This document shows positions 20,617 to 43,817 of a stretch of 64,000 bases of DNA, piece after piece. The DNA lies in assembly GCA_949358305.1 (NCBI GenBank), contig OX442314.1, forward strand, positions 11,842,001-11,906,000, written 5' to 3'. Under the pieces are notes generated by a model that had not been told where the DNA came from, ran no database searches, and was given only the letters and a program-made list of their open reading frames with translations. The first letter of the stretch is position 1. The number at the start of each line of letters is the position of its first letter. The stretch is from Strigamia acuminata. Its lineage: Eukaryota. Both the position numbers and the translations under genes were made by a program.

Positions 20617-22890
20617 ATGGCGCTATTAACGCAGATGGCAAGGTCCATAGTCCGATTAGGTCATTGCAATGTTAGCCAATTACAGCTTGGACAACTTCCT
20701 ATTGATTTGCGAGGAAGCAGGCGGCTTTTGCACATTTCCGCAGTCATGGTAAGTTGGAAATAAAAATAAATTAAATTAAATTAAAAAAAAAACAAACGTA
20801 TGCGTGCAATTTCTTTATTTTTGTTTAGGAACAACATCGAATTGAAACCGATACGTTTGGAGAACTCAAAGTCCCTTCGGAAAAATATTATGGAGCTCAA
20901 ACCGTTCGATCTCAGATGAATTTTCCTATCGGAGATGACACGGAACGCATGCCAGTACACATTTAAATTATAAAATATTAAAAACAATTATTAACCAACG
21001 TTTATTTACAGCTGCCAGTCATTAAAGCTTTTGGAATCCTGAAAAAATCAGCGGCATTGGTCAATAAAGAATACGGGTTGGACGCAAAACTTTGTGATGC
21101 GATCTGCAAAGCGGCTGACGAGGTTCAATGATGAACAGAATATTAATTTTAGGGCCGGATTAAGGTTTCGGGGAACCCGGAGCACTTACGACAGGGACCC
21201 CCATGATTATCCAGAAATAACATCTGCAGAAAAAAATGCATTTACAGGCTGAAAAATGCATTTTTTTGAGAAACAAATTGGTTTTGAACCGGAAAAATTG
21301 CATTTGCAGGCTGAAAAATGCATTTTTTGAGAAAGAAATTGCTTTTGAACCGAAAAAATTGCATTTTCATGCAAAACGATGCACTTTTTGGTGATATAAA
21401 TGAATTTTTTAATGTGTACCAGGGAGCCCTTAATCCACTTAATCCGGCCTTGATTAAATTCAAATTACTTAGTTGCAATACTCGCATATTAGGTGATCAG
21501 TGGTGCATTGTACAAAGATCACTTCCCACTCGTGATATGGCAAACGGGGTCCGGCACCCAGAGTAACATGAACGTGAACGAAGTAATCAGCAATAAAGCC
21601 ATCGAAATCATGGGCGGGGAATTGGGGAGTAAAAAACCGGTCCATCCGAACGACCACGTTAATATGAGTCAGGTATTTTCGTAAAAATATAATTAATTAA
21701 TTTGATTTTATTAATTTTTGTTATCTTTCTTAAGAGTTCGAACGACACTTACCCGACCGCCATGCACATAGCCGTGGCTTTGGAAATAAACAATTTATTA
21801 CTACCGAGTCTTAAGAAAATCCACGGCGCTTTGAACCAAAAAGCGATTGATTTCAAGGATATAATTAAGATTGGCCGGACCCACACGCAAGATGCAACAC
21901 CACTCACGTTGGGTCAAGAATTCAGCGGATACGTCACTCAACTCGCGTTTGGAATGGAACGAATACAGGCCACGTTACCTCGCTTGTATTTCCTAGCTGC
22001 TGGTGGAACCGCTGTGGGAACGGGATTAAACACGAGAAAGGGTTTTGCCGAGAAAGTCGCTGCAAAAGTGTCCGAATTAACAGGTTTAATTGGATTTTGT
22101 AGTCGATGACGTATATATTTATTTTTGTTATTTGTTTAGGTTTGCCGTTTAAAACCGCTCCGAACAAATTCGAAGCTTTAGCGAGCAACGATTCAATGGC
22201 GGAAGTGCACGGCGCATTGAACGTGATTGCTTGCAGTATCATGAGAATCGCCAACGATATTCGTTTTCTCGGTTCCGGACCGCGATCTGGGCTCGGAGAA
22301 CTCATTTTACCCGAAAACGAACCGGGCAGTAGCATCATGCCTGGTAAAATGTCGAATTTTTAAAACATTTAAACGAAATTTCAACGAAAAATGATTTTTT
22401 TTTTAGGAAAAGTAAACCCAACCCAATGCGAAGCCATTACTATGGTCGCCTGCCAAGTTATGGGAAACAACGTCGCAGTAACAGTCGGCGCAAGTAACGG
22501 TCACTTCGAATTAAACGTGTTCAAACCAATGATGGTTGCGAACGTGCTTCGGTAAAGGACGAAAAAATCGAACCGAAATCGATAGAATTTTAACCTTTTT
22601 CCTTTTATAGGTCAATTCGATTACTCAGCGACAGCATGGTCTCTTTCACCGACCGATGCGTGGTCGGCATCCAAGCCAATCGCGAAAGAATCGACAAACT
22701 TATGCAAGAATCTCTAATGCTCGTAACTGCCTTAAATCCTCACATCGGCTATGACAAAGCGGCGCAGATCGCAAAAACCGCGCACAAGGAAGGAACGACA
22801 TTGAAGCAGGCGGCGTTGAAACTCGGTCATTTGACCGAAGCGCAATTTGACGAATGGGTCAAACCCGCAGAAATGCTCGGTCCTAAATAA
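20617..22890 (+). CDS. FH: Fumarate hydratase (class II), mitochondrial precursor, multi-exon
   Basis: [70 protein letters not shown]-rich presequence in exon 1. Confidence 0.97.
21150..21452. mobile_element. hAT-like MITE in an FH intron
   Basis: TIRs AGGGCCGGATTAAG / CTTAATCCGGCCTT; near 8-bp TSD ATTAATTT/ATTAAATT; internal AAAATGCATTT repeats. Confidence 0.7.
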
Positions 22891-22992
22891 CTTTTTCTAT
22901 ATTCGAGCGTTTTTAATTAGTCAAAATAATGTGTAAAAATCAAAGATTAAGAGAATAAAACTCCTCATCCCGTACATCGTTCAAAACATCGA

Positions 22993-25718
22993 TTAATAAT
23001 CCCATTTGAAATTCATTTTCAAAAGGTATTTAACGTTGATCTGCGAAACATCGTACACAATGTACTCATTATACGACAAAGACGTATTTGGTACTGTGCT
23101 TTTAACGCCTTGACCCAAAGGAATCTCCACTCCATCCGCATCAACGTATGTGGCAGCCGGATCCGGTTCTATGGCTCCAATACCCTTAGTACTATCTTTT
23201 CCAGCAGGCAATTTAGTATTAAAATCTGCCTCTTTCAACTCGTGCCTAAAAAAATAATACAAAAATCAATAAATTATTTGATTATATGAATAATAATTAA
23301 AACGTACATATTGCCCAACGCAACCTCGCACAACATCATCAGTCCAATCGGATTGGATTTGTCGGTGTAACAGTAGCCGGCACTTTTCGACACCATGTCG
23401 GCGAAATAAACACCTTTGCCGAAGTTGTAACCCGACTAAATAAAGATAAAAGTTAAAAATACGTTCCGGGTTTGTATATAAAACTGTTTAATCTACCGGT
23501 GGCGCTTCCGGTGGAGCGATGCGTAATCCTTGCGACAGTATCCCCGCGTAATTAGTGACGCGAGATCCATGCCATAGCAGTTTGCGGTTATGGAGTTTCT
23601 TAAACGGCTTGTAGCGTTTGTTTTCGCCATGACGGACCACTTTGAACACGTCGATTATCTCCAATCCGTATTTGTTGTGCGTTTTATCGTGAGTGTTCTT
23701 CACGTATTTCTTAATCAAATCAAATTCTTTGGATTTACGATCAAGAACCTGAAATAAAATTTCAAATTAAGCAAAACAAAGAAATATTTTCATTTATTTT
23801 ATTTTTTACTTCAATGTCGGTTTTGAGTTTCTCGTAATGGGCATCGATGGGGTCCTTCGAGCCGTCGTCCACGCCCTGCAGCAAACTGTACGCGACTTCG
23901 ATTTCCAACAAGTTGTCCAACATTTCTATTTTCTGTTTAATAATTTCTTCGTTATCGAGAGAAGTTGGTTTTTTAATGCCAAAATCGTGCGGAATAAGAG
24001 TGTAAAATCTATTAGATGCGTCCAAGAACTTCGAAGCGGGCGCTTTAGTTCGAATCAACTATTAAAAAATAAAATACAAGTTAAATTATATTTCAACGTT
24101 TTAATTAATTAAAAAATCACCTGCAGCAGTTCGGTTAAAATAGAATAAGCCTTTTCGATCTGTTTTCGCGACAATTTACCCAGCGGCATCTTTTTCAAAT
24201 CGATCTAGAAGACAAAAATTAAAAATATACTTAAAATTTACTAATTTACTTCAATCTATACCTCGAATTCCACTAAAGCCTTTTGCATACTTTCTAAGTC
24301 GAATATCATGCGAATTAACTTCTGAATCTGTTGCTTGTGTTTTGATTTGGTGTTTTCAAAATCCTCTTTCAGACGTTTAATTTTCTCGTCATCCTAGACC
24401 GAAAATTTGTTATTAAATGCTCATTAATTGGCAATAAGTTTCCATACTTGCAGGGGCGGATCTAGCTTTTCGGGGGCCCGGGGCTTGCGATTTTTTCGGG
24501 GCCTCTTTCTCAAAATATTTACTAGCAACCGACCTTTTTTTTTTTTTTTAGTACATGGCCCAGAGTCTCGGGGGTCCCAAGGCTCAAACCCCAATAGCCC
24601 GATGCTAGATAAAAAGTTTCCATACTTGGCCATAATCGATATCCACAGGATAAAACTTATACGGGTGCTTGATAAAATGTTTGCGATTTTTCCATTCGTT
24701 TCTCGTTTTTGTTAAATACAACGCTTGAAACGAATTGATGGCATCCTCTCTATCAGTCATTTGCTTGACTTTATTACCGCCAATCGTGGTTCCCACACGA
24801 CCCCACGACTTGAACAACCAAAACCTATTAAAAAATAGACAAAAATTAATGAAAATCGCTCAAAAAACCGAGAAAACAAAATATTTCGACCTATTTTTCT
24901 TGTCTCCTTCCAAAATCTGAAGCTTATAAAACGAATTGGTTCCACGAGATATATCCACCATTCCGAGAATAGCGTTGTAGATTTCGCTACGCTCTTCCAA
25001 AACATGAGCTACGTCTTGTAAACCTATAGAAAATAAAAATAAAACCATTTAAAATCAAGAGTAAATTAATCGAAGAATTAAATTAAATAATCACCTGACG
25101 CTGGATCCACAGCAGCGCTCCATTTAACCGTCATTTTTAACTTCGAAGGCATACTTCTCGTGTACACAGATTCCTTCTCTATAGAATTTAAATTAAAAAA
25201 AGTAATTTAAAAATTTAAAAAGAAATTGTACAATAATATAATGAATTAAATTTGTCCATTTTTTGTCCGCTCCGTAACTGTCCAAAACCTGGTTCTTAAT
25301 CAGTTTTGGTCATCAGAAAGCAAATTTTGATTTTGGTAGATTTCGTGCCAGTTTTGCCAACTTTTGATAAACCAGGTATCTGCTCCCTTTCCACTATTCA
25401 AATCTTATTTCATTTTCACCTTTAGCGCCGCTCTTTTTCGACTTTACTCCTCCTGGAACGTGTTTAGATGAAAAAATTCTGTCCCTTTTAACATATTCAT
25501 ATGTTTTTCTAAATTTAAACAATAAAAATTATAATAAATTGTTTTAAATTGTCAATTTTGTTTAGTTTACAAAAAATTAAATTTTTCCTTCATTTGATCA
25601 GGTACTGTGAACGGTATTCTCTCCGGTTCTTTTGTAACGAAAGTGCATTTGGTCCATCTGGTCATATTACCATGACACCTATATCCCTCGGTCCTTAAAT
25701 TTAAAAAAAATTAATACA

Positions 25719-25750
<32 letters not shown>

Positions 25751-27462
25751 ATGTATATAAAGATATATATATGTATATAAAGTTAAAATAAAAAATTTAC
25801 TATTACTGATAAAATAATTGTCCTCCAGAACATTCTTTGCACCGCTTGGGAACGCCAAACGCCATAGCATCCGCCAAACAATCGAGCATCTAAATTATAA
25901 ATTAAATTTAATAATTTGTTTTATATAATTAATTAATTAATTATTAATTACTCGACTGTTTCCCTTTTGAACTGCTCGTTTATTATGTTTCAACAGCTCT
26001 TGAAGATCTTTCTTTTTCAATTGGTTTTCAAGTTTATCTCGAAAATCAAAAATGATTTTATTTTGCTCCTAAATTAAATATACATATAAAAAAAATTAGT
26101 AGGAATTATCATAATTTATGTAGAATATTCGAGATATCTCACTTTAAGTTGCGTTTCTTCTGCATTGTCCTCTTCTTTGGCTTTTTTACTCTTGGGGCCG
26201 TCTTTGTTAGACTCGGCTACCCGTTTCCTATTGACAAAATGTGAAATTTTAAAACACGAATAAAAAATTATTACCAAAATTTATTAATTACAAGGCGCTT
26301 TTCATCATTGGCAACTTCTTTTTCAAACTGGCTTGATCTCCCGGTTTGAGAGATGAAAAACCAGCAAGTCTAGATTCAGTAGTGTAAAAAATTAATGGAA
26401 AAAATTGTCAAAATCAATTAAATAAACAAATAAATACACGTACACATCAGCAGATCCAAAGAATTCTAAATCTTCACGATTCGAAACGAAGCAGTCCTCG
26501 TGGTACCACAAATCCGCAGGACCAAATCTAGCTGCTTCTCCTTCAAAAGCCTTTTTAGATATTCGTACCAAATCCTATGGTTGGAAAAAAAATATTTTTT
26601 ATTAAAAAAAATTCATTTTTAACTTCAAACGCATTAATTGTACGCAATCTCAGTACAGAATTTACAAAATAGAAAAATTGTAAATATAAAATCAAAGAGT
26701 TTTGCAATTATTTTACCAGAAATTAATTATCACAGATGTTAGAAGAAAAAACATTGTGAAACTCAACTTCCTGGAGAAAAAATAAATTATTTTTTCACAA
26801 AATTTTATTTTTACCTTCGGTATTTTTCTGTTACAACCTCTGCAAAAACTTCGACTAGACTTCGCATATTCGGTAGCAAAATCGCTAAGTCCTTTCTGTG
26901 TGTCGTCTAAACAAAATTTAAACTAACATTTGTTAAAATAAATAAATAAAATTTATTTTTCGATTTTTCTAATTACCAACGGCTTTTTCAATTTTTTCCT
27001 GATCTTCCCATCGCAGTTGATCGACGTGAGCGATATCGCCAACGGTCTTTGGTCGACTGTTTGCAAAAAAACAGTCGAAATGATACCAATTTTGTTTCTA
27101 TGAATTTAAAAAGTGGAATAAAATTAGCACAAAAATCGGATTAAGCATTTTCTAACATTTGCGTACTTTTCCATCAAAGCGCCCACACTTCATTTCATAA
27201 AAAAATAGAATTAGAAAAATACATTCTTAGTCATAAATCTCATCAATTTTAATTACTAACTCACTTGAATCATAATAGCAAGTCTTAACGATGCTAAGGA
27301 TAAAAACAGGCATAAATTCATTAATTCGGCGTCCAACATTTTTGTAGACCATAGGTGGGGACCACTTTTAAACTTACCTTTTTCAATAGCTGCATTACAT
27401 CCTTTACAAGATGCTCTGCTACTTTTCGCATATTCTGCCCGGTATGGAAGGTCGTCAGACAT
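22993..27462 (-). CDS. PARP1: PARP1 paralog A (derived copy lacking BRCT), multi-exon
   Basis: Zn1 ([16 protein letters not shown]), Zn2, Zn3, WGR (SWGRVGT), helical domain ([13 protein letters not shown]) and catalytic H-Y-E (WHGSR, GVYFAD, YNEYIVY) present. No stop or frameshift seen. BRCT exons absent. Confidence 0.9.
24451..24610. mobile_element. Truncated MITE in a PARP1-A intron
   Basis: CAGGGGCGGATCTAGC...GCTAGAT partial TIRs; absent from PARP1-B; flanked by a 15-bp duplication AAGTTTCCATACTTG. Confidence 0.7.
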
Positions 27463-27600
27463 GATTTAATAAATAATAAATAGGCCCAGAAATACAGCAC
27501 ACTTTACTCGACGGCCCCACTTCAGATTTAAGGCGGGAAAGAAGTGAATGAAAGCGCATGCGCGACAGAATTGAAAACTGAAAAGCTGAATCCCGCAAAC
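27463..27600 (-). promoter_or_regulatory. PARP1-A proximal promoter candidate (paralogous to 41272-41400)
   Basis: E2F-like GGCGGGAAA (27532-27540) and NRF1-type GCGCATGCGC (27554-27563; also at 41359-41368). Confidence 0.45.
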
Positions 27601-27756
27601 TCGAAAACCTGATCAACCAAGTGATAAACCCACTTGCACAGAAAAAAATAAACAAGAAATTTTATTTTAAAAAACAAGTAAATATCAGTAATGCATGGAA
27701 GCATTACATATTAGACTTCTAAACCCCTTCTATACTTTTCTGTATAGAAACATATC

Positions 27757-30700
27757 TGTTGAGTATTTAATAAATGGTAATCACACATGTTGTGCACAAT
27801 GTTCACTATCACTTTATTGCTGTGGTCAGCCTGAAGGTTAACACTTAAGTGAGTGATGGCTCATCACTAACATGACACGTGGTTTCTACATTCCTCAGTG
27901 ATTGCCACTAGAGGGCGATACATAAAACCTTACTTCAATACATAACAATATTCCCCCCTTATAATGAATAAAAATGTCACAATATATAAGTTTCAATGTT
28001 TCATAAATTCAGTCTATCTGGTCCTTTTAATAACTCCCTCGGGCGCAAACCCTCGCGCCTCGGTGCACCAACATTTGGGTTGTTTTGGATGTTATCATTT
28101 ACTCGGTGTTCCGTCACATCCCCAACCGGTTCCGGCACTTGATCCTCTTCGATCTCGACAATCTCCACATCCGATGTCCCCTGCTCCAAATCTATATCGT
28201 GATCCTCAATGTCGGTCCGGCCATCCCCACAAGTCCGCGTTGCTCCGTCGCTGGATATCTCGCGATCCAGACGCATCTGATCGACGTGAACCGTTCTGGA
28301 AACCGCACCGACGTCTACAATATACGTCCTTGAACTCTGCACAGAACTAACGATTCCGCGCACCCATTCTGGGCCGCGTGTGTGATGTCTTTTTATCCAT
28401 ACCGCCTGGCCGACCTCAAAGGTACGGGCACAACGTCCGGTCTGCGCATTATGGATCTTGTCCAACCGTTCGTGGACGTGACGTCTCATATTCGGCCTCA
28501 CCAACGAAAACCGTGTTCGCATGTTCCTACAAATAAACAATTCCGCAGGAGTCTTACCCGTTATTGCATGCGGAGTGTTTCGGTATCGCAATAAGAATCT
28601 CGTAATTTTGTGACTCGTAGTCGTATTGTCCTTCTCATCGGTCATCATACGCTCAAGCGACTCCTTAAACGTTCGCACAGCCCTCTCGGCAGCACCGTTA
28701 GAGGCGGGATGGTATGCCGGCACCAACGTCTGCTTAATTCCATTAAGCGCCAAAAACGTCGCAAATTCTACAGAAGAAAACTGAGGACCATTGTCCGACA
28801 CCAACTCGACCGGCACTCCAAAATCCGCGAACTTCCACCGTAACACCTCTATAGTCCGCTCAGATGTAGTTGTGGTCATCGGAATAACGTCAATCCACTT
28901 CGAAAAGCTATCATAAATAATCAAATAATGTATTTTCCGCAATTCGGCAAAGTCAATATGTATGCGCTCATATGGGCCAGATGGCCACGACCATGATCTG
29001 AAGGGCGCCTCCGGAGGATCAGCTTGGCACTGCTGGCATGCATGACATTTCCTCGCAACGCTCTCTATCTCCGCGTCCAAACCCGGCCACCACACGTACG
29101 CGCGCGCAATCGACTTCATTTTCACCATCCCCGAATGCGTATCGTGCAATAAATCCAAAATGTGCGGACGATATTTAGTCGGAATCACCACACGCATTCC
29201 CCATACAATACATCCGTCATCGATAGATAATTCCTCTCGCCGACGTGAAAACGGCATAATGTCCGGATCCTTCACATCACTCGGCCAACCATCCCCAAGA
29301 TAACGCAAAACCGATCCCAACACCCTATCGTTCCTCGTAGCGGCACCAATATTCTTCGCCACGATCGGCATCTCATCGATGAACGACAACTTAAATATGT
29401 GCGATTCCACACCAACGACGCCATCCAGTATCGGCATGCGGGATAAAACGTCCGCATTCACATTTTCACACCCGCGCTTGTATTCGATTTTATACCTAAA
29501 TGTAGACAATAATAATGCCCATCGGCGAATACGCTCAGCAGCCAACGTCGGGATTCCCCGCTTGTCACCAAATATTGCCACCAAAGGAAGATGGTCGGTT
29601 ACCAAAGTAAATTCTCTCCCGACGAGGTACTGATAAAACTTTTGCACGCCGCAGACAATTGCCAAGGCCTCTCTTTCGCCTTGTGGATAGCCCCGCTGGG
29701 CCGGCGTCAAAGTCTGGGATGAATAACCAATAGGGCGCTCCTCGCCATTTGCCATGATATGCGACAAAATGGCACCAACCCCGACCGGTGATGCGTCGCA
29801 CGTCAAACGAAGCGGTTTGCGAACGTCGTAATGCACTAAAACCGCCTCAGATGTTAAAGCGCTCTTGCATTGCTGAAATGTTCGCTCACATTCCTCGGTC
29901 CATTTCCATTCCACTTTATCCTGCAAAAGACTGTATAAAGGGGTTAATTTAGTTGACAAATCCTTTAAAAATTTACAATAATAGTTCAAAAGTCCCAAGA
30001 AAGAACGCAGTTCAGACACATTGTTCGGTGATGGCACTTTGTTTATCGCATCGACTTTATCAGTCGTAGGATGAATTCCTTCCTTATCTATAATATGTCC
30101 CAAATATTTAATTTTCTTCTGCAAAAACTTGCATTTCTTTCGGTTCAGACAAACATTATATTTTCTAAATCGCTCAAATAACGTTCTCAAAACCGCCAAA
30201 TGTTCACTTCTTGACGGCGCAGTAGTCATGGTATCGTCCTGAAATGCCACAACCCGCTTAACACCTTGAATAATTTGATCGATTGCCCGCTGGAAGATAG
30301 CCGATGCCCCAGCAAATCCGTATACCAAACGTTTGGGGCGCATCAAACCCATATGCGTGTTTAAAGTCAAAATTTCCTGTGCCTGTTTATCAAGCTCGAT
30401 CTGCTCATAAGCGTCCGAGCAATCAACGGAAGAAAATTCCTCCCCTCCGCATAATGTCGCAAAAATGTCCTGTTGGGTAGGCAAAGGATATTGATTAATG
30501 TCCAAGCACGGGTTTACCGTGATCTTAAAATCGCCGCAACATCGCACCGATCCATTTGGTTTTACGACGTTTACCAATGGTGTGGCCCACTCGGAATGCT
30601 CCACACGCTCCCAAATCCCTGCATCTAAATGTCGTTGAATCTGGGCCTCCACTGCCTGTTTTAACGCATATGGCACTGGCCGATGCTTGCAAAATACAGG

Positions 30701-32350
30701 CTTTGCGTCTTTACGTAACTTGATGGTCGCCTTAAAATCCTTTATTGGATCCTTTTTTGGCTCAAATAAACTGGAATAATCTCTTAATAAGTTCTCAACA
30801 GTATCCGGCTGATCAGATTTAATCTCGGTCACCGCAAAAATACTTTTCCAGTCCAAACTCACTTTTTCAATCCAATTTCGACCGAATAATCCCGGGCGAT
30901 CCCCTTTTACCACCACCAACGGCAAAACATATGTCCTTTCCTTATATTTGATTGTGACATCGGTCTGTCCCTCGATCTCCACAATGCCACCGCTATATGA
31001 AAGTAACGTTATCCTGCATGGATTTAATGTCATTAATGGAAAATTCGCTTTAAACCACTTTTCGCCCACAACAGCTACATCCGCCGCGGTATCCAATTCC
31101 ATCTCCATCCGTACACCGGCAATTTCAACAGGAACCATATATTTCTTACAATTTCCGACCTTACCGATCGAGTATACTGGATACAATTCGAACGTTGGCT
31201 GTTCATCATCGCTTTCCGGTCCCCGGGCCTCGATCTTCTTCGCGAATTTTTGTTCGGGTCGAAACGTCTGCCTTTTCTGGCTTACACCTTTGGTTGTCCT
31301 CGATTTACATACTGGGGAAATGTGTCCAATTTTCCCACATGAATGACACGTCGCACCGACGTATTTGCACCTGTCCGCGGAATGTTCGTATCCACAACGA
31401 TAGCACGCCTCCCTGTCTCTATTTTTATCAAATCTTTGCCTTACCGGATGTCTCTCGTCCAATTTACTCACGGTAACGACTGGTGGCACTTTTATTTGCG
31501 TTGAATCTCGATCCACCATCTCCATGGCGGCCGCCGTGTCAACTGCATCAGTCAATTTTAAATCCTTTTTTGACAGTAAACGTTTCTGGATCGTCTCATT
31601 CGCCAAACCGCATACGAATTTATCACGCAATGCGTCGTTCAAAAATGATCCATAGTCACATGTCGACGCCAATCGTCTCAGCTCGACGACGTACTCTGCA
31701 ATCGATTCAACAGTATTTTGATCTCTTTTTAAAAACCTGAACCGCTCCGCGATGATTATTGGAGCTGGTTTGTAATGGTCGGACAACTTCTTAACAATGT
31801 CATCCCACGTCCAATCTTTTGGCTCTGTCGGTTGCATGAGGTTTCTCAGCAACTTATATGCGGTTCGACCCATTACCGCCATTAATGTGGATGACTGTTT
31901 ATCCGCCTTTATCCCGTTAGCCAAGAAAAAATGTTGGAGACGCTCCAAATATAAGCAGAATTCTTCTTTCGTTTCATCGAACTCGCCAATTTCACCAATA
32001 ATCGACATTTCTACTCACGTGAATCACCAACGTCCTTGCGAAGGTCGCGACAAACACAAATGGCGCACTCACGCAAAGTTGTTCACTCAATTTATTGTGT
32101 ACACGAGAGAGCACAAAAGCTCATACACCACACAAAATTTATCCTATTCTCGTCGCCATTGTTGAGTATTTAATAAATGGTAATCACACATGTTGTGCAC
32201 AATGTTCACTATCACTTTATTGCTGTGGTCAGCCTGAAGGTTAACACTTAAGTGAGTGATGGCTCATCACTAACATGACACGTGGTTTCTACATTCCTCA
32301 GTGATTGCCACTAGAGGGCGATACATAAAACCTTACTTCAATACATAACA
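27757..32350 (-). mobile_element. Full-length Ty3/gypsy LTR retrotransposon (Mag-like)
   Basis: Two identical 191-bp TG..CA LTRs (27757-27947, 32160-32350); 5-bp TSD ATATC; PBS TGGCGACGAG (tRNA-Ser type); polypurine tract next to the 3' LTR. Confidence 0.97.
28001..32008 (-). CDS. Gag-Pol polyprotein (1335 aa)
   Basis: Two CCHC knuckles, protease LDTAA, RT (FQDD), RNase H (CDAS, EREAL), integrase HHCC plus D-D-E; uninterrupted ORF. Confidence 0.96.
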   Translation of the reverse strand: MSIIGEIGEFDETKEEFCLYLERLQHFFLANGIKADKQSSTLMAVMGRTAYKLLRNLMQPTEPKDWTWDDIVKKLSDHYKPAPIIIAERFRFLKRDQNTVESIAEYVVELRRLASTCDYGSFLNDALRDKFVCGLANETIQKRLLSKKDLKLTDAVDTAAAMEMVDRDSTQIKVPPVVTVSKLDERHPVRQRFDKNRDREACYRCGYEHSADRCKYVGATCHSCGKIGHISPVCKSRTTKGVSQKRQTFRPEQKFAKKIEARGPESDDEQPTFELYPVYSIGKVGNCKKYMVPVEIAGVRMEMELDTAADVAVVGEKWFKANFPLMTLNPCRITLLSYSGGIVEIEGQTDVTIKYKERTYVLPLVVVKGDRPGLFGRNWIEKVSLDWKSIFAVTEIKSDQPDTVENLLRDYSSLFEPKKDPIKDFKATIKLRKDAKPVFCKHRPVPYALKQAVEAQIQRHLDAGIWERVEHSEWATPLVNVVKPNGSVRCCGDFKITVNPCLDINQYPLPTQQDIFATLCGGEEFSSVDCSDAYEQIELDKQAQEILTLNTHMGLMRPKRLVYGFAGASAIFQRAIDQIIQGVKRVVAFQDDTMTTAPSRSEHLAVLRTLFERFRKYNVCLNRKKCKFLQKKIKYLGHIIDKEGIHPTTDKVDAINKVPSPNNVSELRSFLGLLNYYCKFLKDLSTKLTPLYSLLQDKVEWKWTEECERTFQQCKSALTSEAVLVHYDVRKPLRLTCDASPVGVGAILSHIMANGEERPIGYSSQTLTPAQRGYPQGEREALAIVCGVQKFYQYLVGREFTLVTDHLPLVAIFGDKRGIPTLAAERIRRWALLLSTFRYKIEYKRGCENVNADVLSRMPILDGVVGVESHIFKLSFIDEMPIVAKNIGAATRNDRVLGSVLRYLGDGWPSDVKDPDIMPFSRRREELSIDDGCIVWGMRVVIPTKYRPHILDLLHDTHSGMVKMKSIARAYVWWPGLDAEIESVARKCHACQQCQADPPEAPFRSWSWPSGPYERIHIDFAELRKIHYLIIYDSFSKWIDVIPMTTTTSERTIEVLRWKFADFGVPVELVSDNGPQFSSVEFATFLALNGIKQTLVPAYHPASNGAAERAVRTFKESLERMMTDEKDNTTTSHKITRFLLRYRNTPHAITGKTPAELFICRNMRTRFSLVRPNMRRHVHERLDKIHNAQTGRCARTFEVGQAVWIKRHHTRGPEWVRGIVSSVQSSRTYIVDVGAVSRTVHVDQMRLDREISSDGATRTCGDGRTDIEDHDIDLEQGTSDVEIVEIEEDQVPEPVGDVTEHRVNDNIQNNPNVGAPRREGLRPRELLKGPDRLNL

Positions 32351-33228
32351 ATATCTGTCTCTAAATTAAACACCAAAATAAAAGAAAATGTTGAGTCGAT
32401 TCTTTTTATTCGTTTTATTCAATTTAGACATTTAAAATAGATAATAATTCAGATTCATTTAAATGAATTTTTTATGAAATTTATTTCTTTATTATTTAAT
32501 TTATTTATTTAATTACAAAACAGGAAGTAGAAATATTACATTTCCGGTTTGACAGGAAGTGCGGAAAGACGGACAGACGGACATGACCGTTTTATTATTA
32601 TTATTATTATTAGACTTTCTAAACATAGAACATAGGAGTCTAAAAAAACGGAAAAAAAAAAACAGAAACTTAAAATAATTTTAATTTAGGTTGGACACAC
32701 CACAATCTTACGGTAAAATATGTATTTATTTTCCTCGGTACAGTCCGCCAGAGGAGTACAGTGGCGGCAAAATTACGTTCTTCATATTTGTAAATTAGGG
32801 TTATTTATTTCCATTTCATACAAATAGTTCTATCTTGCAGCAGTATTTTTAGGAGCTAGGAAATTCCTTCTGACTAATAAGTTTGGAATAAGTGACAGTT
32901 GTCAGTTTCGCAGTGGATATTTGATTCAGTTGAGTTTCTATATTGCCGTATTCATTTTTAAATTGTATGAAATTTACATATCACAATTTTTCCCATACAT
33001 ATCACGAGTCAATAAGTGCCCAATTCCCATCACATTAATAAATCCAGTTAAGGTCAGGTTCGCGGGGGGGGGGGGAAGGGTCGAGGGGGGGCGCTAGCCC
33101 CACTTGTTACGAACAAAAAAAAAAATACTCGTCATTATCATTAACAGCAAGAACAATGAAAATTCGGATGATCGGTAGTGACGATTCGCCCGTAAAGTGT
33201 AGTTCTACCGTGATTTCTTCACTCAGAA

Positions 33229-34215
33229 ATGGAAAAACTTTCAGGAACATTCGCTCGCTTTCAGGAAAATCTAAAAGCCGCGAACTCGTGTCCCAGCTTG
33301 ATGAAAATATCATTATTAACTCTCGCAATTTCATTTTGGCGAAAAGATGCGGTTAGATTGAAAATAGGGAATTATTTAGGAAGAAATGTCGTGGGAACGA
33401 CAGGAAATAAAAAATAATAATCAAAGGGTTAAAGGTATAAATAAACCACTGTACTCAGACAGGGGTTGGGTAAAGGAGTGTTGGAACAAGGACACTCATT
33501 TGAGCAGCAGCAAATGCCTAAGGGCATAGACAACAAAAATCATTTATCGGAAAGGCAATTGGAATGGACATTTGATGAGCACTACTTGAACTTGGATTTT
33601 TGTGACATGCAGATATTAGAGTGTTTACTGTGGTCAAACAGATGTTGGAATGAGTGTTTTTATTCAAGTTTGATCGATGTGCTTGATTTTATTGATACAC
33701 TGCATCGTTCCGTGGAGTATTTTGTAAGGATGTTAGTTGAGATTTTCCGGAGTGGTCTTTCTAGTTACCCAAAAAAAAAGTTTTTCGAAAAATTGTGGTA
33801 CAGTCTTTCCAGCGATAAAAAACTGTCTATATTCAAGTATAAGTTTACCATAATGGATCTGTTTAACTATCAGGATCTTGATTTTCTTAAGATGCTGATG
33901 AAAAGTGCGGATGAAGAGATGAAATTGGATTTTTTGGTGTCCAAAAGATCTACCTGCGTGTTAATGGTTGTGAATGATGGAGGAGCCGTGTTGGATGAGT
34001 TTCTGCGTGAAATTTTCCAAAGTGATGGCATCTTGCGACGTTTTAAGCAACATGTTTGTGATTTTGGGATTGAATACCTCAGAAAATTAACTGAGGATGA
34101 ATACGAATCTGATTCAGACGATGGCAATCCACTAACTGAAGAAAGGATTTTTAAAACTGATTTATCGTCTATTGAATTGCTAGAAGGTAAACTTATGGCT
34201 TTTTGCAATCATTAA
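33229..34215 (+). pseudogene. Disrupted copy of the BC-box-like gene family (partner of PARP1-A)
   Basis: Near-identical to 41777-43255, but ~640 bp of coding sequence is replaced by a 149-bp insert that brings a stop. Confidence 0.85.
33387..33535. mobile_element. Possible solo LTR (149 bp)
   Basis: TGTCGT...ACAACA inverted termini; contains TATAAATAAA; absent from the paralog; no clear TSD. Confidence 0.5.
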
Positions 34216-34707
34216 GCATTGGAAGAAAACTATTCAATGGTGAGTTGTGTTGGAAGCTTCAACAACTGAAATAATAATTAATATTTTTTCTTCTTCAAGC
34301 ATTTTGTATAAGTTTATTGATGTTAAGAAAATTTGATTTTTATATAGTTGTTGCTGAAAATTGCGCATTTACTATTAACATTGATATTAAAATAAAACAA
34401 ATACTAAATTTAATGAAAAAGCAAGGGCAAAAATTAAACAAACACACGTGACACATCACAACAATGCCACTTTGTCAGTGAAATGATAAAAGGTAAATCC
34501 AGTCAGACTCCGCCATATCAGTTTTTCCTTCAGAATCATCATCATCGAATCTCTGAATTCACGGACAAGCTAGACCGAGAATTACACACAAAATCGGAAA
34601 AATTGAGAAATTATAAACTTAAAATAATTTTACTTTAGGTTGGATAAGTCGCCAACTTTCTGTAAAATAAATATTTAGTTTCTTCGGATGCTGGCTATTG
34701 TGGGTCC

Positions 34708-35993
34708 GGGGTTGGACCTATTCCGCCCCGCCCAAAACCGCCACTTGGTCCATTTCCGCCCCATCCCGATTCCGCGGCGAATTTTTCTATTTAAATTAAA
34801 TAAAAATTATTTAAATAAAAATAAAATATAATAAAATTTCGCAGAGCCCAATTCCGCCTAAACACATTGCGGAGTGGAATTGGGACTGGGCGGAATTGGG
34901 ACTGGGGCGGAATTGGGACGAGCGGATTTGGATTGCATCAAGGCAGAGCCCAATTCCGCCTAAATACATTGCGGGGCGGAATTGGTTTACAACTACCCGA
35001 ACTGGATCGCTCGGACGGAGTGTCGAATAAAACAGTGTACGATCACAAAATCACCGAAAATTCAACTTACTCGCCGATCGTCGAAGAGAACGTTGCGGAT
35101 CGTTGTTTGGAGTTCGCGTCCAAGATTTATTTGGGCTCGGCGGCGACGGCGTTTAATTGTCGCGGGACGAGCGTGCACACTACGAAAACGCCGGATAAGT
35201 GGCGCGAGCGAGAGTCGATGTTGCTGGCCGACCAGCTCGGTGACTTGGACGGCGTTGCACCGTGTTCGTCGTCGCCCAAAGCCGTTTACAATGGGATACA
35301 GCCGTACAAGTTCTATCAGGATGCTCCACGACTGCCAAGTGATCCGACAAGTCGACTGCAAATTAATCGCGTGCAAACTGAGTGGCGGTATCATCGTTTT
35401 GTTCGACCAACACGCGGTGCACGAACGAATCCGACTAGAACAACTCCAAGCCGAGATGGACTTTCTTTTTAAGCGAGGACGATTTGGTCAACGTGAAACG
35501 CCGTTCGCTCAATCCGCCGATGAAATTCTCCAGTTCGGGTCGTTGTAAACGTTCTGTGGCTCTCTCTTCGGTATTTTCTGTCTGAGCGATGCAGTTCGGG
35601 TCGGTTTCAACATTTTCCGTCGCGAATTATTTCAACAATGCGGAGAAAGTGCTCTCGAACATTTCGCGACGGCTGCAATTCCAGTGTTAATTCGTTAATT
35701 TGTTTATTCCTGTATGTATTGTTTATTACATAACAGAAATAAAACAAATTTAAGGCATCAAATATTTTGGAGTGGAATTGGAACGCGGCGGAATTGGGAC
35801 CGGGGCTGAATTGGGACAGGAGCGGAATTGGGACTGGGGTGGAATTGGAATTGGGCGGAATTGGGAAGGACGGAATTCTGAGGGGCGGAATTGGGACGAG
35901 TGGATTGCATCAGGACAGAATTGCAACCTTTTTTACCAAGAGGGGCGGTTTTGGAACCGGTGGAATTGGTTCTGGCGGAAATGAACCCCGTCC
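34708..35993. mobile_element. Mutator-like non-autonomous TIR element carrying captured gene fragment(s)
   Basis: TSD GTGGGTCC (34700-34707, 35994-36001); degenerate GG-start TIRs sharing TTCCGCC and CCAAAACCGCC-CTTGGT; arrays of GGCGGAATTGG; empty site at ~43701. Confidence 0.75.
34984..35455 (+). pseudogene. MLH3: MLH3 fragment (MutL C-terminal endonuclease motif), frameshifted
   Basis: [10 protein letters not shown] /frameshift/ [35 protein letters not shown] matches the MLH3 [27 protein letters not shown] segment. Confidence 0.85.
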
Positions 35994-36106
35994 GTGGGTC
36001 CTTAGGTATGGCATGGATTATAAGCTCTGGAGTTCCTAGACCGACAGGTTTGCCGTAATAATTTTTCAATCGTATTAAATAATCTATTTGATTTCTTTAC
36101 ACAGAA

Positions 36107-36350
36107 ATGTACAAAATCCACATAATATATGCCCGTCTTCAAGAAAAGCTGCAGAACGCGAAATCGTGCAACAACTTGGATTTTTTCGCGCTAGATGACG
36201 CCCCGGAAAATCAACTGGAATTTGCACTCAGAAAATGCGAATTGAAAAGTATTTCATGATGGATCTGTTGAACTATGAGGATCTTAATTCTTAAGTTGAT
36301 GAATAGTATGGATGAAGAGATGAAATACAAATTGACTTTGGAGAAAACAT
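36107..36350 (+). pseudogene. Degenerate fragment of the BC-box-like family
   Basis: MYKIHIIYARLQEKLQNAKSC start homologous to 45274; large deletions; ends at the duplication junction. Confidence 0.7.
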
Positions 36351-36454
36351 AACTTTTTCTATACTCGAGTGTTTTTAATTAGTCAAAATAATGTGTAAAA
36401 ATCAAAGATTAACAGAATTAAACTCCTCTTCCCGTAAATCGTTCAAAACATCGA

Positions 36455-39400
36455 TTAATAATCCCATTTGAAATTCATTTTCAAAAGGTATTTCACGTTG
36501 ATCTGCGAAACATCGTACACAATGTACTCATTATACAGCAAAGACGTATTTGGTACTGTGCTTTTAACGCCTTGACCCAAAGGAATCTCCACTCCATCCG
36601 CATCAACGTGTGTGACAGCCGGATCCGGTTCTGTGGTTCCAATACCCTTAGTACTTTGTTTTCCAGCCGGCAATTTAGTAATAAAATCTGCGTTTTTCAA
36701 CTCGTGCCTAAAAAATAACACGAAAATCAATAAATTATTTCATTATATGAATAATAATTAAAACTTACATATTCCCCAATGCAACTTCGCACAACAACAT
36801 CAGTCCGATCGGATTGGATTTGTTGGTGCAACAGTAGTTGGCACTTTTCGACACCATGTCGGCGAAATAAACACCTTTGCCGAACATGTAACCGGTCTAA
36901 ATAAAGATAAAAGTTAAAAATACGTTCCGGGTTTGTATATAAAACTGTTAAATCTACCGATGGCGCTTCCGGTGGAGCGATGCGTAATCCTTGCGACAGT
37001 ATCCCCGCGTAATTAGTGACGCGAGATCCATGCCATAACAGTTTGCGATTGTGGAGTTTCTTAAACGGCTTGTAGCGTTTGTTTTCGCCATGACGGACCA
37101 CTTTGAACACGTCGATAATCTCCAATCCGTATTGGTTGTGCGTTTTAGCGTGAGTGTTCTTCACGTATTTCTTAATCAAATCAAACTCTTTGGATTTACG
37201 ATCAAGAACCTGAAATAAAATTTCACATTAAGCAAAACAAAGAAATATTTTCATTTATTTTATTTTTTACTTCAATGTCGGTTTTGAGTTTCTCGTAATG
37301 AGCATCGATGGGGTCCTTCGAGCCGTCGTCCTCGCCCTGCAGCAAGCTATACGCGACTTCGATTTCCAACAAGTTGTCCAACATTTCGATTTTCTGTTTA
37401 ATAATTTCTTCGTTATCGAGAGAAGTTGGTTTTTTAATGCCAAAATCGTGCGGAATAAGAGTGTAAAATCTATTAGATGCGTCCAAGAACTTCGAAGCGG
37501 GCGCTTTAGTTTGGATCAGCTATTAAAAAATAAAATAAAAGTTAAATTATATTTCAACGTTTTAATTAATTAAAAAATCACCTGCAGCAGTTCGGTTAAA
37601 ATAGAATAAGCCTTTTCGATCTGTTTTCGCGACAATTTACCCAACGGCATCTTTTTCAAATCGATCTAGAAGACAAAATTTAAAAATTATATACCTATAA
37701 AATTTACTAATTTACTTCAATCCATACCTCGAATTCCACTAAAGCCTTTTGCATACTTTCTACGTCGAATATCATGCGAATTAAATTCTGAATCTGTTCC
37801 TCGAGTTTTGATTTGCTGTTTTTAAAATCCTCTTTCAGACGTTTAATTTTCTCGTCATCCTAGACCGAAAAATTGTTATTAAATGCTCATTAATTGTCCA
37901 ACAAGTTTCCATACTTGGCCATAATCGATATCCAAAGGATAAAACCTATTCGGCTGCTTGACAAAATGTTTGCGATTTTTCCATTCATTTCCCGTTTTTT
38001 CTAAATACAACGCTTGAAACGAATCGATGGCATCCTCTCTGTCAGTCATCTGCTCGACTTTATTACCGCCAATCGTGGTTCCCACACGACCCCACGACCT
38101 GAACAACCAATACCTATTTAAAAAGAGACAAAAATTAATGAAAATCGCTCGAAAAACAGAGAAAAAAAATATTTATACCTATTTTTCTTGTCTCCTTCCA
38201 AAATCTGAAGCTTATAAAACGAATTGGTTCCACGAGATATATCCACCATTCCAAGAATAGCGTTGTAGATTTCGCTATGTACTTCCAAAACATGAGCCAC
38301 GTCTTGCAAATCTACAGAAAATAAAAATAAAACCATTTTAAGTCATCAATAAATTAATCGAAGAATTAAATTAAATAATCACCTGACGCTGGATCCACAG
38401 CAGCGCCCCCTTTAACCGTCATTTTTAACGTCGAAGGCATACTCTTCGTGTACACAGATTCCTTCTCTATAAAATTGAAATTAAAAGAATTAATTTAAAA
38501 AAAATATAATTTAACAATAATAAAATGAATTAAATTTGTCAATTTTTTGTCCGCTCCGTAACTGTCCAAAACCTGGTTCTTAATCAGTTTTGGTCATCAG
38601 AAAGCAAATTTTGATTTTGGGAGATTTCGTGCCAGTTTTGCCAACTTTTGATAAACCGGGTATCTGCTCCCTTTCCACTATTCAAATCTCATTCCATTTA
38701 TACCTTTAGCGCCGCTCTTTTTCGACTTCACTCCTCCTGGTTCCTGCACGCGTAAATGGGGCTGTAAAAATTAAATATTATAAATATTTTTCACAAAAAT
38801 TTAATTGACAACTCACATCTGATCCCCAATCACAAATGCTTTTCTCGACGATAAGTAGAATCGCTCCACCATTTTTCACAGAATCAACATAATCTTCAGA
38901 AACGACGTGAACGTCCGCATCTTTCGCTTCTTCGATCTTTTTGCTCATTTTATTCACCTCCGCTGTCAAAATTATCATGATTAACAACAGAAAAACACTT
39001 TTTTACTCAAAAAAATTGATAACTACCTTCATTACTGATCACAGCTGCCACAGTTTTATCGATTTTCGTTACAACTTTTCCTCCGAGAGACTCAATCGTC
39101 TTGACTAATGCTGGTTTTCCTTTGGATAGCTTACCAACAGTCACAAAATTCATGTTAGATAATGGCAAATCGGCGCTAAAAGAAAAGAAATAAAATTATT
39201 TCCCCGTTTATTTACATTATTGTTTACTAATTACGAGGGTGGTTTGCTGCCGGATGACGATGAGGCGACGGCTGCAGATGGAACGTGTTTAGATGAAAAA
39301 ATTCGGTCCCTTTTAACATATTTATATTTTTTTCTAAATTTAAATAATAAAAATTATAATAAATTGCTTCTAAAGTGTCAATTTTGTTTCGTTTACAAGA

Positions 39401-41271: not shown

Positions 41272-41776
41272 GATTTAATATTAAATAGGCCCAGAAATAC
41301 AGCACACTTTACTCGACGGGCCGACTTAAGATTTAAGGCGGCAAAGAAGTGAATGAAAGCGCATGCGCGACGTAATTGAAAACTGAAAACCTGAATCCCG
41401 ATAACTCGAAAACCTGATGAATCAAGTGATAAACCCTCTTGTACAGAAAAAAAAAACATGAAATGTTTTGTTTTAAAAAAGAAAAAGAAAAAGTGCCTCG
41501 AAAAAGCAGAAAATTAAAATAATTTTAATTTAGGTCGGACACACCACCATCTTACGGTAAGAAATGTATTTATTTTCTTCGGTACAGACCGCCAGAGGAG
41601 TACAGTGGCGCCAAAATTACGTTCTTAGGAGCTAGGAAATTCCTTCTGAGCAATAAGTTTGGAATAAGCGACAGTTGTCAGTTTCGCAGAGGATATTTGA
41701 TTCAGTTAAGTTTCTATATTGCCGTATTCATTTTTAAATTCTATGAAATTTACATATTTGATTTCTTCACTCAGAA

Positions 41777-43255: not shown

Positions 43256-43817
43256 GCATTGGAAGAAAATTATTCAATGTGTGTTGTGTTGGAAGCTTCA
43301 ACTACTGAAATAATAATTAATATTTTTTCTTCTTCAAGTATTTTGTGTAAGTTTATTGATGTTAAGAAAACTTGATTTTTATATAGTTGTTACTGAAAAT
43401 TGCGCATTTACTATTAACATTGATATTAAAATAAAACAAATACTAAATTTAATGAAAAAGCAAGGGCAAAAATTAAACAAATACACGCGGCACATCACAA
43501 CAATGCCACTTTGTCAGTGAAATGATAAAATGTAAATCCAGTCAGATTCCGTCATATCGGTTTTTCCTTCACAATCATTATCACCGAATCTCTGAATTCA
43601 CGGTCAAGCTAACCGAGAATTACACATAAAATCAGAAAAATTACATGGAAAAATCAGAAACTTAAAATAATTTTACTTTAGATTGGACAAGTCGCCAACT
43701 GTGGGTCCTTAGGTATGGCATGGATTATAAGCTCTCGAGTTCCTAAACTGACAGGTTTGCCGTAATCATTTTTCAATCATATCGTATTAAATAATCTATT
43801 TGATTTCTTTACACAGA

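What the first reader, a model, noticed from the sequence alone, without database searches (positions are those of the whole stretch)
25420..25517. PARP1-A lost its whole BRCT domain by an exact in-frame, exon-fusing deletion
Relative to PARP1-B, 541 bp (38741-39281) are missing and the ends are joined at a 3-bp microhomology (TGG at 25454-25456), which is the Pro codon CCA in both parent exons. [10 protein letters not shown]...[10 protein letters not shown] becomes [13 protein letters not shown], removing ~120 aa and three introns. Zn1-3, the KS-rich linker, WGR, HD and the H-Y-E triad remain. A second in-frame deletion (33 nt) shortens the Zn1-Zn2 linker at ~26900. Two frame-preserving deletions and no disabling lesion suggest a functional BRCT-less PARP1 beside a canonical one.
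Basis: partly seen in the sequence, partly recalled or inferred. Interest (0 to 1): 0.85.

Follow-up and report, generated by a model that had tools for sequence, protein, structure and literature searches.

The report
BRCT-less tandem duplicate of centipede PARP1
A centipede genome carries two side-by-side copies of the DNA-repair gene PARP1; one copy has lost its whole BRCT domain through a single in-frame deletion and still has an open reading frame, but it is changing so fast, including at a key catalytic-pocket residue, that it is likely a diverging (or possibly decaying) spare copy and not a second normal PARP1.

Summary
The window holds a tandem duplication of a geophilomorph-centipede PARP1, on the minus strand. 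Copy B (36455-41271; 24 exons, 987 aa) is canonical. Copy A (22993-27462; 21 exons, 855 aa) lacks 541 bp (B 38741-39281). The ends are joined at a 3-bp TGG/CCA microhomology (25454-25456). This fuses exons 12 and 15 in frame and removes 121 codons, three introns and the whole BRCT domain. A 33-nt in-frame deletion shortens the Zn1-Zn2 linker.

A has no stop or frameshift, and all 20 introns are GT-AG. That is improbable under neutral drift (P about 0.0004-0.005 for stops alone).

- A carries 58 lineage-specific amino-acid changes against 4 in B, so its replacement rate is near neutral.
- A has replaced residues invariant in 64 orthologues, notably acceptor-site Met890 (to Asn).
- An intact Ty3/gypsy element sits about 295 bp upstream of A.
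- Transcription of A could not be shown.

Best reading: a young paralog that is still coding but under relaxed or altered selection, with predicted weakened polymer elongation. A duplicate on its way to becoming a pseudogene is a serious rival. Interest is moderate.

The parts
22993..27462 (-). PARP1-A, ATG to stop. 21 exons, 855 aa: Zn1, Zn2, NLS linker, PADR1/Zn3, fused linker, WGR, HD, ART. No BRCT.
   Evidence: Exon model transferred from B by alignment. Open frame and 20 of 20 GT-AG introns. Exon-wise Pfam hits to zf-PARP, PADR1_N, Zn_ribbon_PADR1, WGR, PARP_reg and PARP.
25420..25508 (-). Fused exon of A (5' part of ancestral exon 12 joined to 3' part of exon 15). Encodes (L)[29 protein letters not shown].
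   Evidence: No Pfam family.
25454..25456 (.). Deletion junction: 3-bp microhomology, TGG on the + strand, which is the CCA Pro codon on the coding strand.
   Evidence: Overlap of the two BLASTN segments; sequences read.
26815..26906 (-). A exon 5, which carries the 33-nt (11-codon) in-frame deletion in the Zn1-Zn2 linker.
   Evidence: gap at B 40711-40679; the Strigamia protein has the long form; contigs X1 26619-27020 and X3 26709-27020 span it.
23424..23426 (-). Codon for Asn733 of A, equivalent to Met890 of mammalian PARP1 (acceptor-site residue). It is Met in B, in Strigamia and in 64 of 64 orthologues.
36455..41271 (-). PARP1-B, ATG to stop. 24 exons, 987 aa, canonical architecture with BRCT.
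   Evidence: All 23 introns are GT-AG. Spliced X4 contigs skip its introns exactly.
38741..39281 (-). Segment of B with no counterpart in A: 3' part of exon 12, intron 12, exon 13, intron 13, exon 14, intron 14 and 5' part of exon 15. It covers 121 codons, including the BRCT domain.
   Evidence: DNA contigs of X1 and X2 (38821-39363) and X3 (38639-39321) cover it.
27757..32354 (-). Intact Ty3/gypsy-type LTR retrotransposon in the same orientation as A; its 3' LTR ends 295 bp upstream of A's ATG. It has 195-bp identical terminal repeats, a GATAT target-site duplication, a polypurine tract and a 1337-aa gag-pol ORF.
27463..27655 (-). Promoter-proximal region of A, still about 92% identical to B's and including a GCGCATGCGC palindrome. 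Homology to B ends near 27674.
   Evidence: Alignment; the identity was counted by me from that printout.
22887..36350 (.). Duplication unit A: PARP1-A, transposon insertions and a broken copy of the upstream orphan ORF.
36349..44067 (.). Duplication unit B: PARP1-B and an intact 497-aa orphan ORF at 41762-43255 on the + strand.

Best explanation
PARP1-A is a young tandem duplicate of a canonical centipede PARP1 that lost exactly its BRCT domain through one 541-bp, frame-preserving, exon-fusing genomic deletion. It is likely still a protein-coding but functionally diverged paralog, predicted to sense DNA breaks yet to make little or only short poly(ADP-ribose).

Shown:
- The duplication, the deletion and its 3-bp microhomology.
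- The open 855-codon frame and the intact splice sites.
- The kept Zn-finger ligands, F44/D45/R34, W589/R591, NLS linker, HD and H-Y-E triad.
- The 58:4 asymmetry of amino-acid change.
- The replacements M890N, N906G, L985S and T887S (mammalian numbering).

Inferred:
1. The deletion arose by end joining at microhomology after the duplication, which itself post-dates the split from the Strigamia maritima lineage.
2. Selection has kept the frame open while constraint on most residues was relaxed or redirected.
3. The protein would still be nuclear and DNA-break activated. Human PARP1 lacking BRCT is as active as wild type, and the automodification linker after BRCT is retained in A.
4. The remodelled acceptor pocket would curtail chain elongation.

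Expression of A is untested.
For: Structure.

Recent origin: B and A share 75 differences from the Strigamia protein, while B alone has 4. A-B intron divergence is 5.5% (91 of 1669) and dS is 0.113.

The frame has been kept by selection:
- Simulated neutral substitution of the CDS gives P(no stop) = 0.0052, 0.0006 and 0.0004 for 73, 114 and 145 substitutions.
- Only 2 exonic indels occur, both in frame. About 7.6 would be expected at the intron indel rate.
- 80 of 80 core splice bases are unchanged (P 0.01-0.10).
- In the same unit the neighbouring orphan ORF did get broken.
- No exonic indel or stop variant of A appears among the variants listed for four runs (list cut).

Residual constraint:
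- The replacement rate is 4.8% at columns at least 95% conserved, against 11.4% elsewhere (10 of 208 vs 71 of 623, Fisher p = 0.0044).
- The HD-region window has omega 0.07 and the Zn2 window 0.14, while the WGR window has 1.36.
- Domain heterogeneity gives chi2 p = 0.049.

Key DNA-sensing and catalytic residues are kept.

A exists in DNA contigs of two studies. X1 has a 448-nt piece with 0 differences over 26 A/B-diagnostic sites. X3 has a 918-nt piece with 25 of 30 diagnostic sites in the A state.

Literature (passages read):
- M890V lowers activity more than 200-fold, and PARP3 carries Arg at this site (PMC6486540).
Against: - The A-lineage replacement rate is about as high as neutral. About 86 nonsynonymous changes give omega_A of roughly 0.8 if dS is split evenly, or roughly 1.5 against half the intron distance (my arithmetic). 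Omega = 1 is not rejected by rate alone.
- Ten replacements hit columns at least 95% conserved, and several are radical (G529W, L665H, A823D, M890N, N906G, L985S).
- Variants of A not explained by B states are 7 nonsynonymous to 3 synonymous (small, truncated list).
- Unit A has taken many hits: a 541-bp deletion, a 33-bp deletion, insertions of 177 and 40 bp in introns, about 5 kb of nested transposons 215-295 bp upstream of the ATG, and a broken neighbour ORF.
- The effect of M890N itself has not been measured by anyone I could find.
Confidence: 0.5

Rival explanations
1. PARP1-A is a non-functional duplicate on its way to becoming a pseudogene. After duplication it lost constraint, lost BRCT and part of a linker, and accumulated damaging replacements and transposons. 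Its frame is still open because it is young, because most of its divergence is recent, or because truncated PARP1 fragments are harmful and get purged while missense changes are tolerated.
For: - 58:4 asymmetry of replacements.
- Near-neutral omega on the A branch.
- Replacement rates are equal (10.5-12.1%) in all conservation classes below 95%.
- Loss of invariant Met890, Asn906 and Leu985, with M890V reported more than 200-fold down (PMC6486540 passages).
- The neighbour ORF of the same unit is broken.
- Nested transposons lie next to the promoter.
- 7:3 nonsynonymous:synonymous private variants.
Against: - An open frame is unlikely under neutrality since duplication (P 0.0004-0.005).
- There is no frameshift despite an expected 7.6 indels, and all splice sites are intact.
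- Replacements are depleted 2.4-fold at invariant sites (p = 0.0044).
- The HD and Zn2 windows are strongly conserved.
- A late loss of constraint cannot by itself give about 86 replacements (my arithmetic).
Confidence: 0.33
2. One reading: A is a fully functional PARP1 that simply lacks BRCT, with normal DNA-dependent poly(ADP-ribosyl)ation, kept beside the canonical copy.
For: - Intact frame and splice sites.
- H-Y-E triad, Zn ligands, W589/R591 and HD kept.
- Human deltaBRCT PARP1 is fully active in vitro (PMC2699514 passages).
- The proximal promoter is about 92% conserved.
Against: - M890N, N906G, L985S and T887S in the catalytic pocket are each otherwise invariant in 64 orthologues.
- Protein evolution is 15-fold faster than in B, which is not what a copy doing the same job shows.
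Confidence: 0.12
3. Artefact: A and B are two haplotypes, or a collapsed or mis-joined assembly, and not two loci. Alternatively, the 541-bp gap is an assembly error.
For: No listed contig piece was seen across 25454-25456 (table cut). A few contigs laid on A carry B states in short tracts.
Against: - The window has no N.
- The two units are contiguous with a defined boundary at 36349/36350.
- A-type and B-type contigs both occur in each of X1, X2 and X3.
- dS of 0.11 with 58:4 asymmetric protein change is not allelic behaviour.
- A-specific transposon insertions and the 33-nt deletion are seen in independent contigs.
Confidence: 0.03

Closest known systems
Canonical animal PARP1 (clade 1B of Citarelli et al. 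2010, PMC2964712 passages). Here: copy B and Strigamia maritima T1IQQ9 (P0002).
   Same: Zn1, Zn2, NLS linker, PADR1/Zn3, WGR, HD (PRD) and ART with the H-Y-E triad. The exon-intron structure and the proximal promoter are shared with B.
   Different: - No BRCT: 121 residues gone.
- 11 residues shorter Zn1-Zn2 linker.
- Met890Asn and other changes at invariant catalytic-pocket residues.
- 58 lineage-specific replacements.
- None of 75 animal homologues of at least 800 aa in the sample lacks the BRCT region.
Engineered human PARP1 deltaBRCT (Altmeyer et al. 2009, PMC2699514, passages read).
   Same: The domain content is the same: Zn fingers, WGR and CAT, with the post-BRCT automodification linker retained. 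This shows such a protein can fold and be fully active in vitro.
   Different: That is a laboratory construct with a wild-type catalytic pocket. A is a natural gene with an altered acceptor site, and its activity is unmeasured.
PARP3 (and the PARP1 M890V mutant), as described in the review PMC6486540 (passages read).
   Same: A non-Met residue at the acceptor-site position equivalent to PARP1 Met890. The review links this to short-chain or mono-ADP-ribosylation, or to strongly reduced activity.
   Different: PARP3 has Arg there and lacks the zinc fingers. A has Asn on a full PARP1 DNA-sensing chassis. By sequence, A is a PARP1 duplicate and not a PARP3 relative.
Young tandem duplicates undergoing asymmetric divergence or pseudogenisation (general pattern; my own knowledge).
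   Same: One copy is conserved and the other fast-evolving, with deletions and transposon insertions concentrated in the fast unit.
   Different: No disabling lesion in 2565 coding nt and 40 splice sites, against neutral expectation.

Membership tests
PARP1 (clade 1B PARP) | Two N-terminal PARP-type zinc fingers (PF00645) with CCHC ligands | tested here: met
   A exons 4 and 5 hit PF00645 at 31.5 and 22.4 bits. These are fragments, below the 39.3-bit whole-protein cutoff. C21, C24, H53, C56, C125, C128, H159 and C162 are all kept.
PARP1 (clade 1B PARP) | PADR1 / third zinc finger | tested here: met
   PADR1_N at 40.9 bits and Zn_ribbon_PADR1 at 43.2 bits on A exons 9 and 11.
PARP1 (clade 1B PARP) | BRCT domain between Zn3 and WGR | tested here: not met
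   The 121 residues that hold BRCT in B and Strigamia are absent from A. The fused exon has no Pfam hit.
PARP1 (clade 1B PARP) | WGR domain with the conserved Trp and Arg | tested here: met
   PF05406 at 49.8 bits on A exon 15. W589 and R591 are kept.
PARP1 (clade 1B PARP) | Helical regulatory domain (PARP_reg / HD) | tested here: met
   PF02877 at 76.3 bits. The window covering HD has omega 0.07.
PARP1 (clade 1B PARP) | ART domain with the H-Y-E triad | tested here: met
   PF00644 at 103, 63.8 and 65 bits on three exons. H862, Y896 and E988 are kept.
PARP1 (clade 1B PARP) | Acceptor-site residues for polymer elongation (Met890, Tyr986) | tested here: not met
   Tyr986 is kept, but Met890 is Asn in A. 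Met is found in 64 of 64 orthologues.
PARP1 (clade 1B PARP) | DNA-break-stimulated poly(ADP-ribose) synthesis | not testable with these tools
   Needs recombinant protein assays.
PARP1 (clade 1B PARP) | Descent from the PARP1 orthologue of the lineage | tested here: met
   A is the tandem duplicate of B, with 92-95% DNA identity and shared introns. Both share 75 differences from the Strigamia protein.
Pseudogene (non-processed duplicate) | Stop codon, frameshift or destroyed splice site | tested here: not met
   None in 855 codons and 20 introns.
Pseudogene (non-processed duplicate) | Replacement rate equal to the neutral rate, uniform over sites | tested here: inconclusive
   The overall rate is near neutral, but it is depleted 2.4-fold at invariant columns (p = 0.0044) and is heterogeneous among domains.
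Pseudogene (non-processed duplicate) | No transcription | tested here: inconclusive
   One RNA-like run (X4) gave only ambiguous pieces on A.

The most novel reading that the evidence does not exclude
A natural 'PARP1 chassis with PARP3-like output'. This would be a BRCT-less, acceptor-site-remodelled PARP1 paralog kept by selection (partly positive, centred on WGR and the catalytic pocket). It would be recruited to DNA breaks like PARP1 but write mono- or short oligo-ADP-ribose, free of BRCT-mediated partners. It would be a newborn division of labour in DNA-damage signalling, caught within one centipede lineage.
Probability: 0.15. Interest if true: 0.7.

Novelty: new variant of a known kind. 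Interest (0 to 1): 0.4.

Why it matters
PARP1 is normally a single-copy gene with a fixed domain order, and none of the 75 animal homologues checked here lacks BRCT.

If A is expressed, it would be a natural experiment on two open questions. The first is what the BRCT domain is for in vivo, since it is dispensable for catalysis in vitro. The second is how the acceptor-site methionine tunes polymer length.

If A is not expressed, it is simply a well-preserved snapshot of an early stage of duplicate decay. In that case the lesson would be that an open frame and an intact catalytic triad are not sufficient to call a paralog functional.

Tried and rejected
- Own genome: not held. I could not look for further PARP copies or measure copy depth.
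- RNA evidence: no RNA holder was listed for A. Of the four runs laid, X4 behaves like a transcriptome, with contigs that skip B introns. Its pieces that landed on A lie in exons that differ from B by only 1-3%, and they mix A and B states. In the bin holding the fused exon X4 had next to no cover (0.1). None of this says anything about expression of A.
The second call used the stretch ending at 41440. No read-laying runs are left, so the A junction could not be examined at fine scale. No listed piece crosses 25454-25456, but 1698 pieces were not shown.
- Natural BRCT-less PARP1s: 0 of 75 animal homologues in the sample lacks the region (77 proteins of at least 800 aa examined; the other 2 are Phytophthora proteins without the N-terminal part). 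The sample is only the top 120 hits of one exon search.
- Literature searches found no paper on a natural BRCT-less or duplicated arthropod PARP1. In the listing the Strigamia genome paper shows zero occurrences of 'PARP'. Supplements were not read.
- Earlier scan notes: none.
- Branch-specific dN/dS with an outgroup CDS: not possible, because only the Strigamia protein was available, not its DNA.
- Structure prediction of the whole A protein: not attempted, because the spliced protein is not a contiguous translation of the window.
- Upstream divergence: I first read the 16.7% divergence of the 234 bp upstream of the ATG as promoter decay. The alignment shows it is caused by the distal about 45 bp where homology ends; the proximal about 190 bp are about 92% identical.
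Full report
**What is in the window**

A self-comparison shows a tandem segmental duplication.
- Unit A is 22887-36350 and unit B is 36349-44067.
- DNA identity is 92-95% over the PARP1 part.
- Unit A begins 3 bp before the stop of a fumarase gene on the + strand (FumaraseC_C).

Each unit carries a PARP1 gene on the minus strand. Upstream of it, on the + strand, each carries a single-exon orphan ORF with no Pfam family. The closest named protein is the Strigamia maritima PARP, T1IQQ9 (P0002; 91% over one exon). The organism is therefore a geophilomorph centipede related to, but not identical with, S. maritima. No whole genome is held for the window.

**Gene models**

I guided the models with tblastn of P0002, three-frame displays and a GT..AG frame-preserving search.
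- Copy B resolves into 24 exons (41271-36455) encoding 987 aa, and all 23 introns are GT-AG.
- I transferred the boundaries through a MAFFT alignment. Copy A has 21 exons (27462-22993) encoding 855 aa, with no stop or frameshift and 20 of 20 introns GT-AG.
- The only exonic length differences are 33 nt (B 40711-40679) and 541 nt (B 39281-38741).

**The finding itself**

The 541-bp gap runs from inside exon 12 (after ...SSKHVP) to inside exon 15 (before GGVKSKK...).
- It removes 363 coding nt (121 codons) and introns of 59, 64 and 55 bp.
- Both ends carry CCA (Pro), so the join is ambiguous over 3 bp (25454-25456).
- Pfam puts BRCT at residues 361-434 of P0002, wholly inside the lost part. B exon 13 alone passes the BRCT cutoff, and A's fused exon matches nothing.
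- The 33-nt loss removes 11 residues of the Zn1-Zn2 linker. Strigamia has the long form, so this is a deletion in A.

DNA contigs support copy A and the 33-nt form.
- X1 has 402 nt at 26619-27020 with 0 differences, across 29 A/B-diagnostic sites and the 33-nt site.
- X1 has 448 nt at 22976-23423 with 0 differences over 26 diagnostic sites.
- X3, from another study, has 313 nt across the 33-nt site, and 918 nt at 23379-24296 with 25 of 30 diagnostic sites in the A state.
- B's BRCT segment is covered by contigs of X1, X2 and X3.
- I saw no listed piece across the 541-bp junction itself, but that table was cut.

**Timing and mechanism of origin (inferred)**

A and B share 75 differences from the Strigamia protein, while B alone has 4. 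The duplication therefore post-dates the split from the S. maritima lineage. A-B divergence is 5.5% in introns and dS is 0.113. A single deletion with 3-bp microhomology fits end joining. Microhomology this short occurs by chance at about 5% of junctions, so the mechanism is plausible but not proven.

**Is A kept by selection?**

Arguments for:
1. Neutral simulation of the CDS, using the intron substitution spectrum, gives P(no stop) of 0.0052, 0.0006 and 0.0004 for 73, 114 and 145 substitutions.
2. Introns show 11 indel events in about 1.85 kb. That predicts about 7.6 indels in A's CDS on its own branch, yet there are two, both in frame. The intron rate is probably inflated by low-complexity sequence.
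3. All 80 core splice bases are unchanged (P 0.01-0.10).
4. Replacements are 2.4-fold rarer at columns at least 95% conserved among 64 full-length orthologues (10 of 208 against 71 of 623, p = 0.0044). They are also unevenly spread: omega is 0.07 over HD and 0.14 over Zn2, but 1.36 over the WGR window, and domain heterogeneity gives p = 0.049.
5. In the same unit the neighbouring orphan ORF was broken. Residues 58-272 are replaced by 153 nt that contain a stop. So unit A is not simply too young to have been hit.
6. The proximal about 190 bp of promoter are about 92% identical to B's.

Arguments against:
1. Polarised with Strigamia, 58 replacements fall on A and 4 on B, with 18 ambiguous, out of 848 columns.
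2. Pairwise dN/dS is 0.41 (CI 0.30-0.60). Nearly all of dN belongs to A, so omega on the A branch is about 0.8 if dS is split evenly, or about 1.5 against half the intron distance (my arithmetic). The rate alone does not reject neutrality.
3. Below 95% conservation the rate is flat (12.1, 10.9 and 10.5%). B against Strigamia shows 14.6, 14.2, 3.2 and 0% across the four bins.
4. Ten replacements hit near-invariant columns. In mammalian numbering they are S41C, G530S, R587K, L665H, A823D, T887S, M890N, N906G, H946D (B has Q) and L985S. G529W lies next to G530S.
5. Among listed variants of A in the four runs that are not B states, 7 are nonsynonymous and 3 synonymous; none is a stop (truncated list).
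6. Unit A carries extra insertions:
   - 177 bp (a high-copy repeat) and 40 bp in introns;
   - about 1.3 kb at 34658-35993;
   - an A-only insert of about 384 bp starting about 215 bp upstream of the ATG, which in turn holds an intact Ty3/gypsy element. That element has identical 195-bp LTRs, a GATAT duplication, a polypurine tract and a 1337-aa gag-RT-RNaseH-integrase ORF.

A high replacement count together with an unbroken frame is hard to obtain by pure relaxation. If A were neutral for long enough to collect about 86 replacements, the frame should have broken. The two readings that fit are a coding gene under relaxed plus some directional selection, or selection that acts only against truncations.

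**What the protein would do (inferred)**

These are kept:
- the Zn1 and Zn2 ligands, F44, D45 and R34;
- the Zn3 cysteines and the TxWTKC tryptophan (seen in the alignment);
- W589 and R591, an identical NLS linker, and HD;
- H862, G863, S864, Y889, Y896, K903, S904, Y907, Y986 and E988.

The linker after BRCT is also kept. Its human equivalent (aa 466-525) is needed for automodification, and human PARP1 without BRCT is as active as wild type (PMC2699514, passages). So DNA-break sensing and allosteric activation are predicted to be intact.

The acceptor pocket is not. Met890 is named as a key acceptor-site residue, M890V lowers activity more than 200-fold, and PARP3 carries Arg at that position (PMC6486540, passages). 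A has Asn there, plus L985S and N906G. I therefore predict reduced or short-chain ADP-ribosylation. Nothing here measures it.

**Transcription**

No run is on record as RNA. Run X4 nevertheless yields contigs that skip B's introns exactly (36706>36768, 36896>36958, 37665>37728, 37858>37914) and that cover BRCT exons 13 and 14. B, with BRCT, is therefore transcribed. For A the data are uninformative.

**Comparison with what is known**

By descent and by six of seven architectural features, A is a PARP1. It fails the BRCT feature and the acceptor-site Met feature. None of 75 animal homologues of at least 800 aa in my sample lacks the BRCT region. Five literature searches found no natural BRCT-less or duplicated arthropod PARP1. 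The closest analogue in function is the engineered human deltaBRCT enzyme. The closest analogue for the pocket change is PARP3 or the M890V mutant.

**Verdict**

- Best reading (0.5): a young, still-coding, BRCT-less PARP1 paralog under relaxed or redirected selection, with a remodelled elongation site.
- Main rival (0.33): a duplicate on the way to becoming a pseudogene.
- Artefact: 0.03.

I rate it a new variant of a known kind, with moderate interest (0.4). It would rise sharply if junction-spanning transcripts are found.

Noticed in passing
window 27757-32354 (minus strand): An apparently active Ty3/gypsy LTR retrotransposon. It has 195-bp terminal repeats that are 100% identical, a GATAT target-site duplication, a polypurine tract, a TGGCGACG-type primer-binding site and an uninterrupted 1337-aa gag-pol ORF. 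It is nested in another A-only insert (27675-27756 plus 32355-32656). Cover in X3 is patchy at 97% likeness, so the insertion may be polymorphic.
   Followed up: partly
window 41762-43255 (+), 44956-46491 (+), 33214-34215 (+), about 36092 (+): A small tandem family of single-exon orphan ORFs (497 and 511 aa, no Pfam family) lies upstream of each PARP1 copy. The unit-A copy is broken: residues 58-272 are replaced by 153 nt that contain a stop.
   Followed up: partly
window 11534-12077: A minisatellite-like array with a 21-bp period (self-matches at offsets stepping by 21, about 96% identity).
   Followed up: no
window 24433-24609 and about 27213-27831: A-specific 177-bp intron insertion, and a stretch upstream of A's ATG, both with contig word depth 20-30 times that of their neighbours in three DNA runs. 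These are high-copy repeats (MITE- or SINE-like).
   Followed up: no
window 23499-23590 and 26340-26381: Contigs that are otherwise A-type carry B states in short tracts: X3 at 23499, 23577, 23587 and 23590, and X1/X2 at 26340, 26354 and 26381. This suggests ongoing gene conversion between the two copies, or shared ancestral polymorphism.
   Followed up: partly
window 38731 (B exon 15, KS-rich linker): The RNA-like run X4 has a 3-nt in-frame omission relative to the window, pointing to a length polymorphism in the linker next to the deletion breakpoint.
   Followed up: no
window 40977-40997 (B) and 27167-27187 (A): A 21-nt micro-exon encoding SSRFDGK (CGRFDGK in A), which carries the Zn1 Phe and Asp equivalent to F44 and D45. 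The Strigamia maritima database protein T1IQQ9 lacks it, probably because of an annotation gap in that record.
   Followed up: partly
window 49900-56100: Several dispersed repeat families of 150-220 bp at 85-97% identity (for example 50280-50439, 51240-51392, 51716-51864 and 52106-52267).
   Followed up: no
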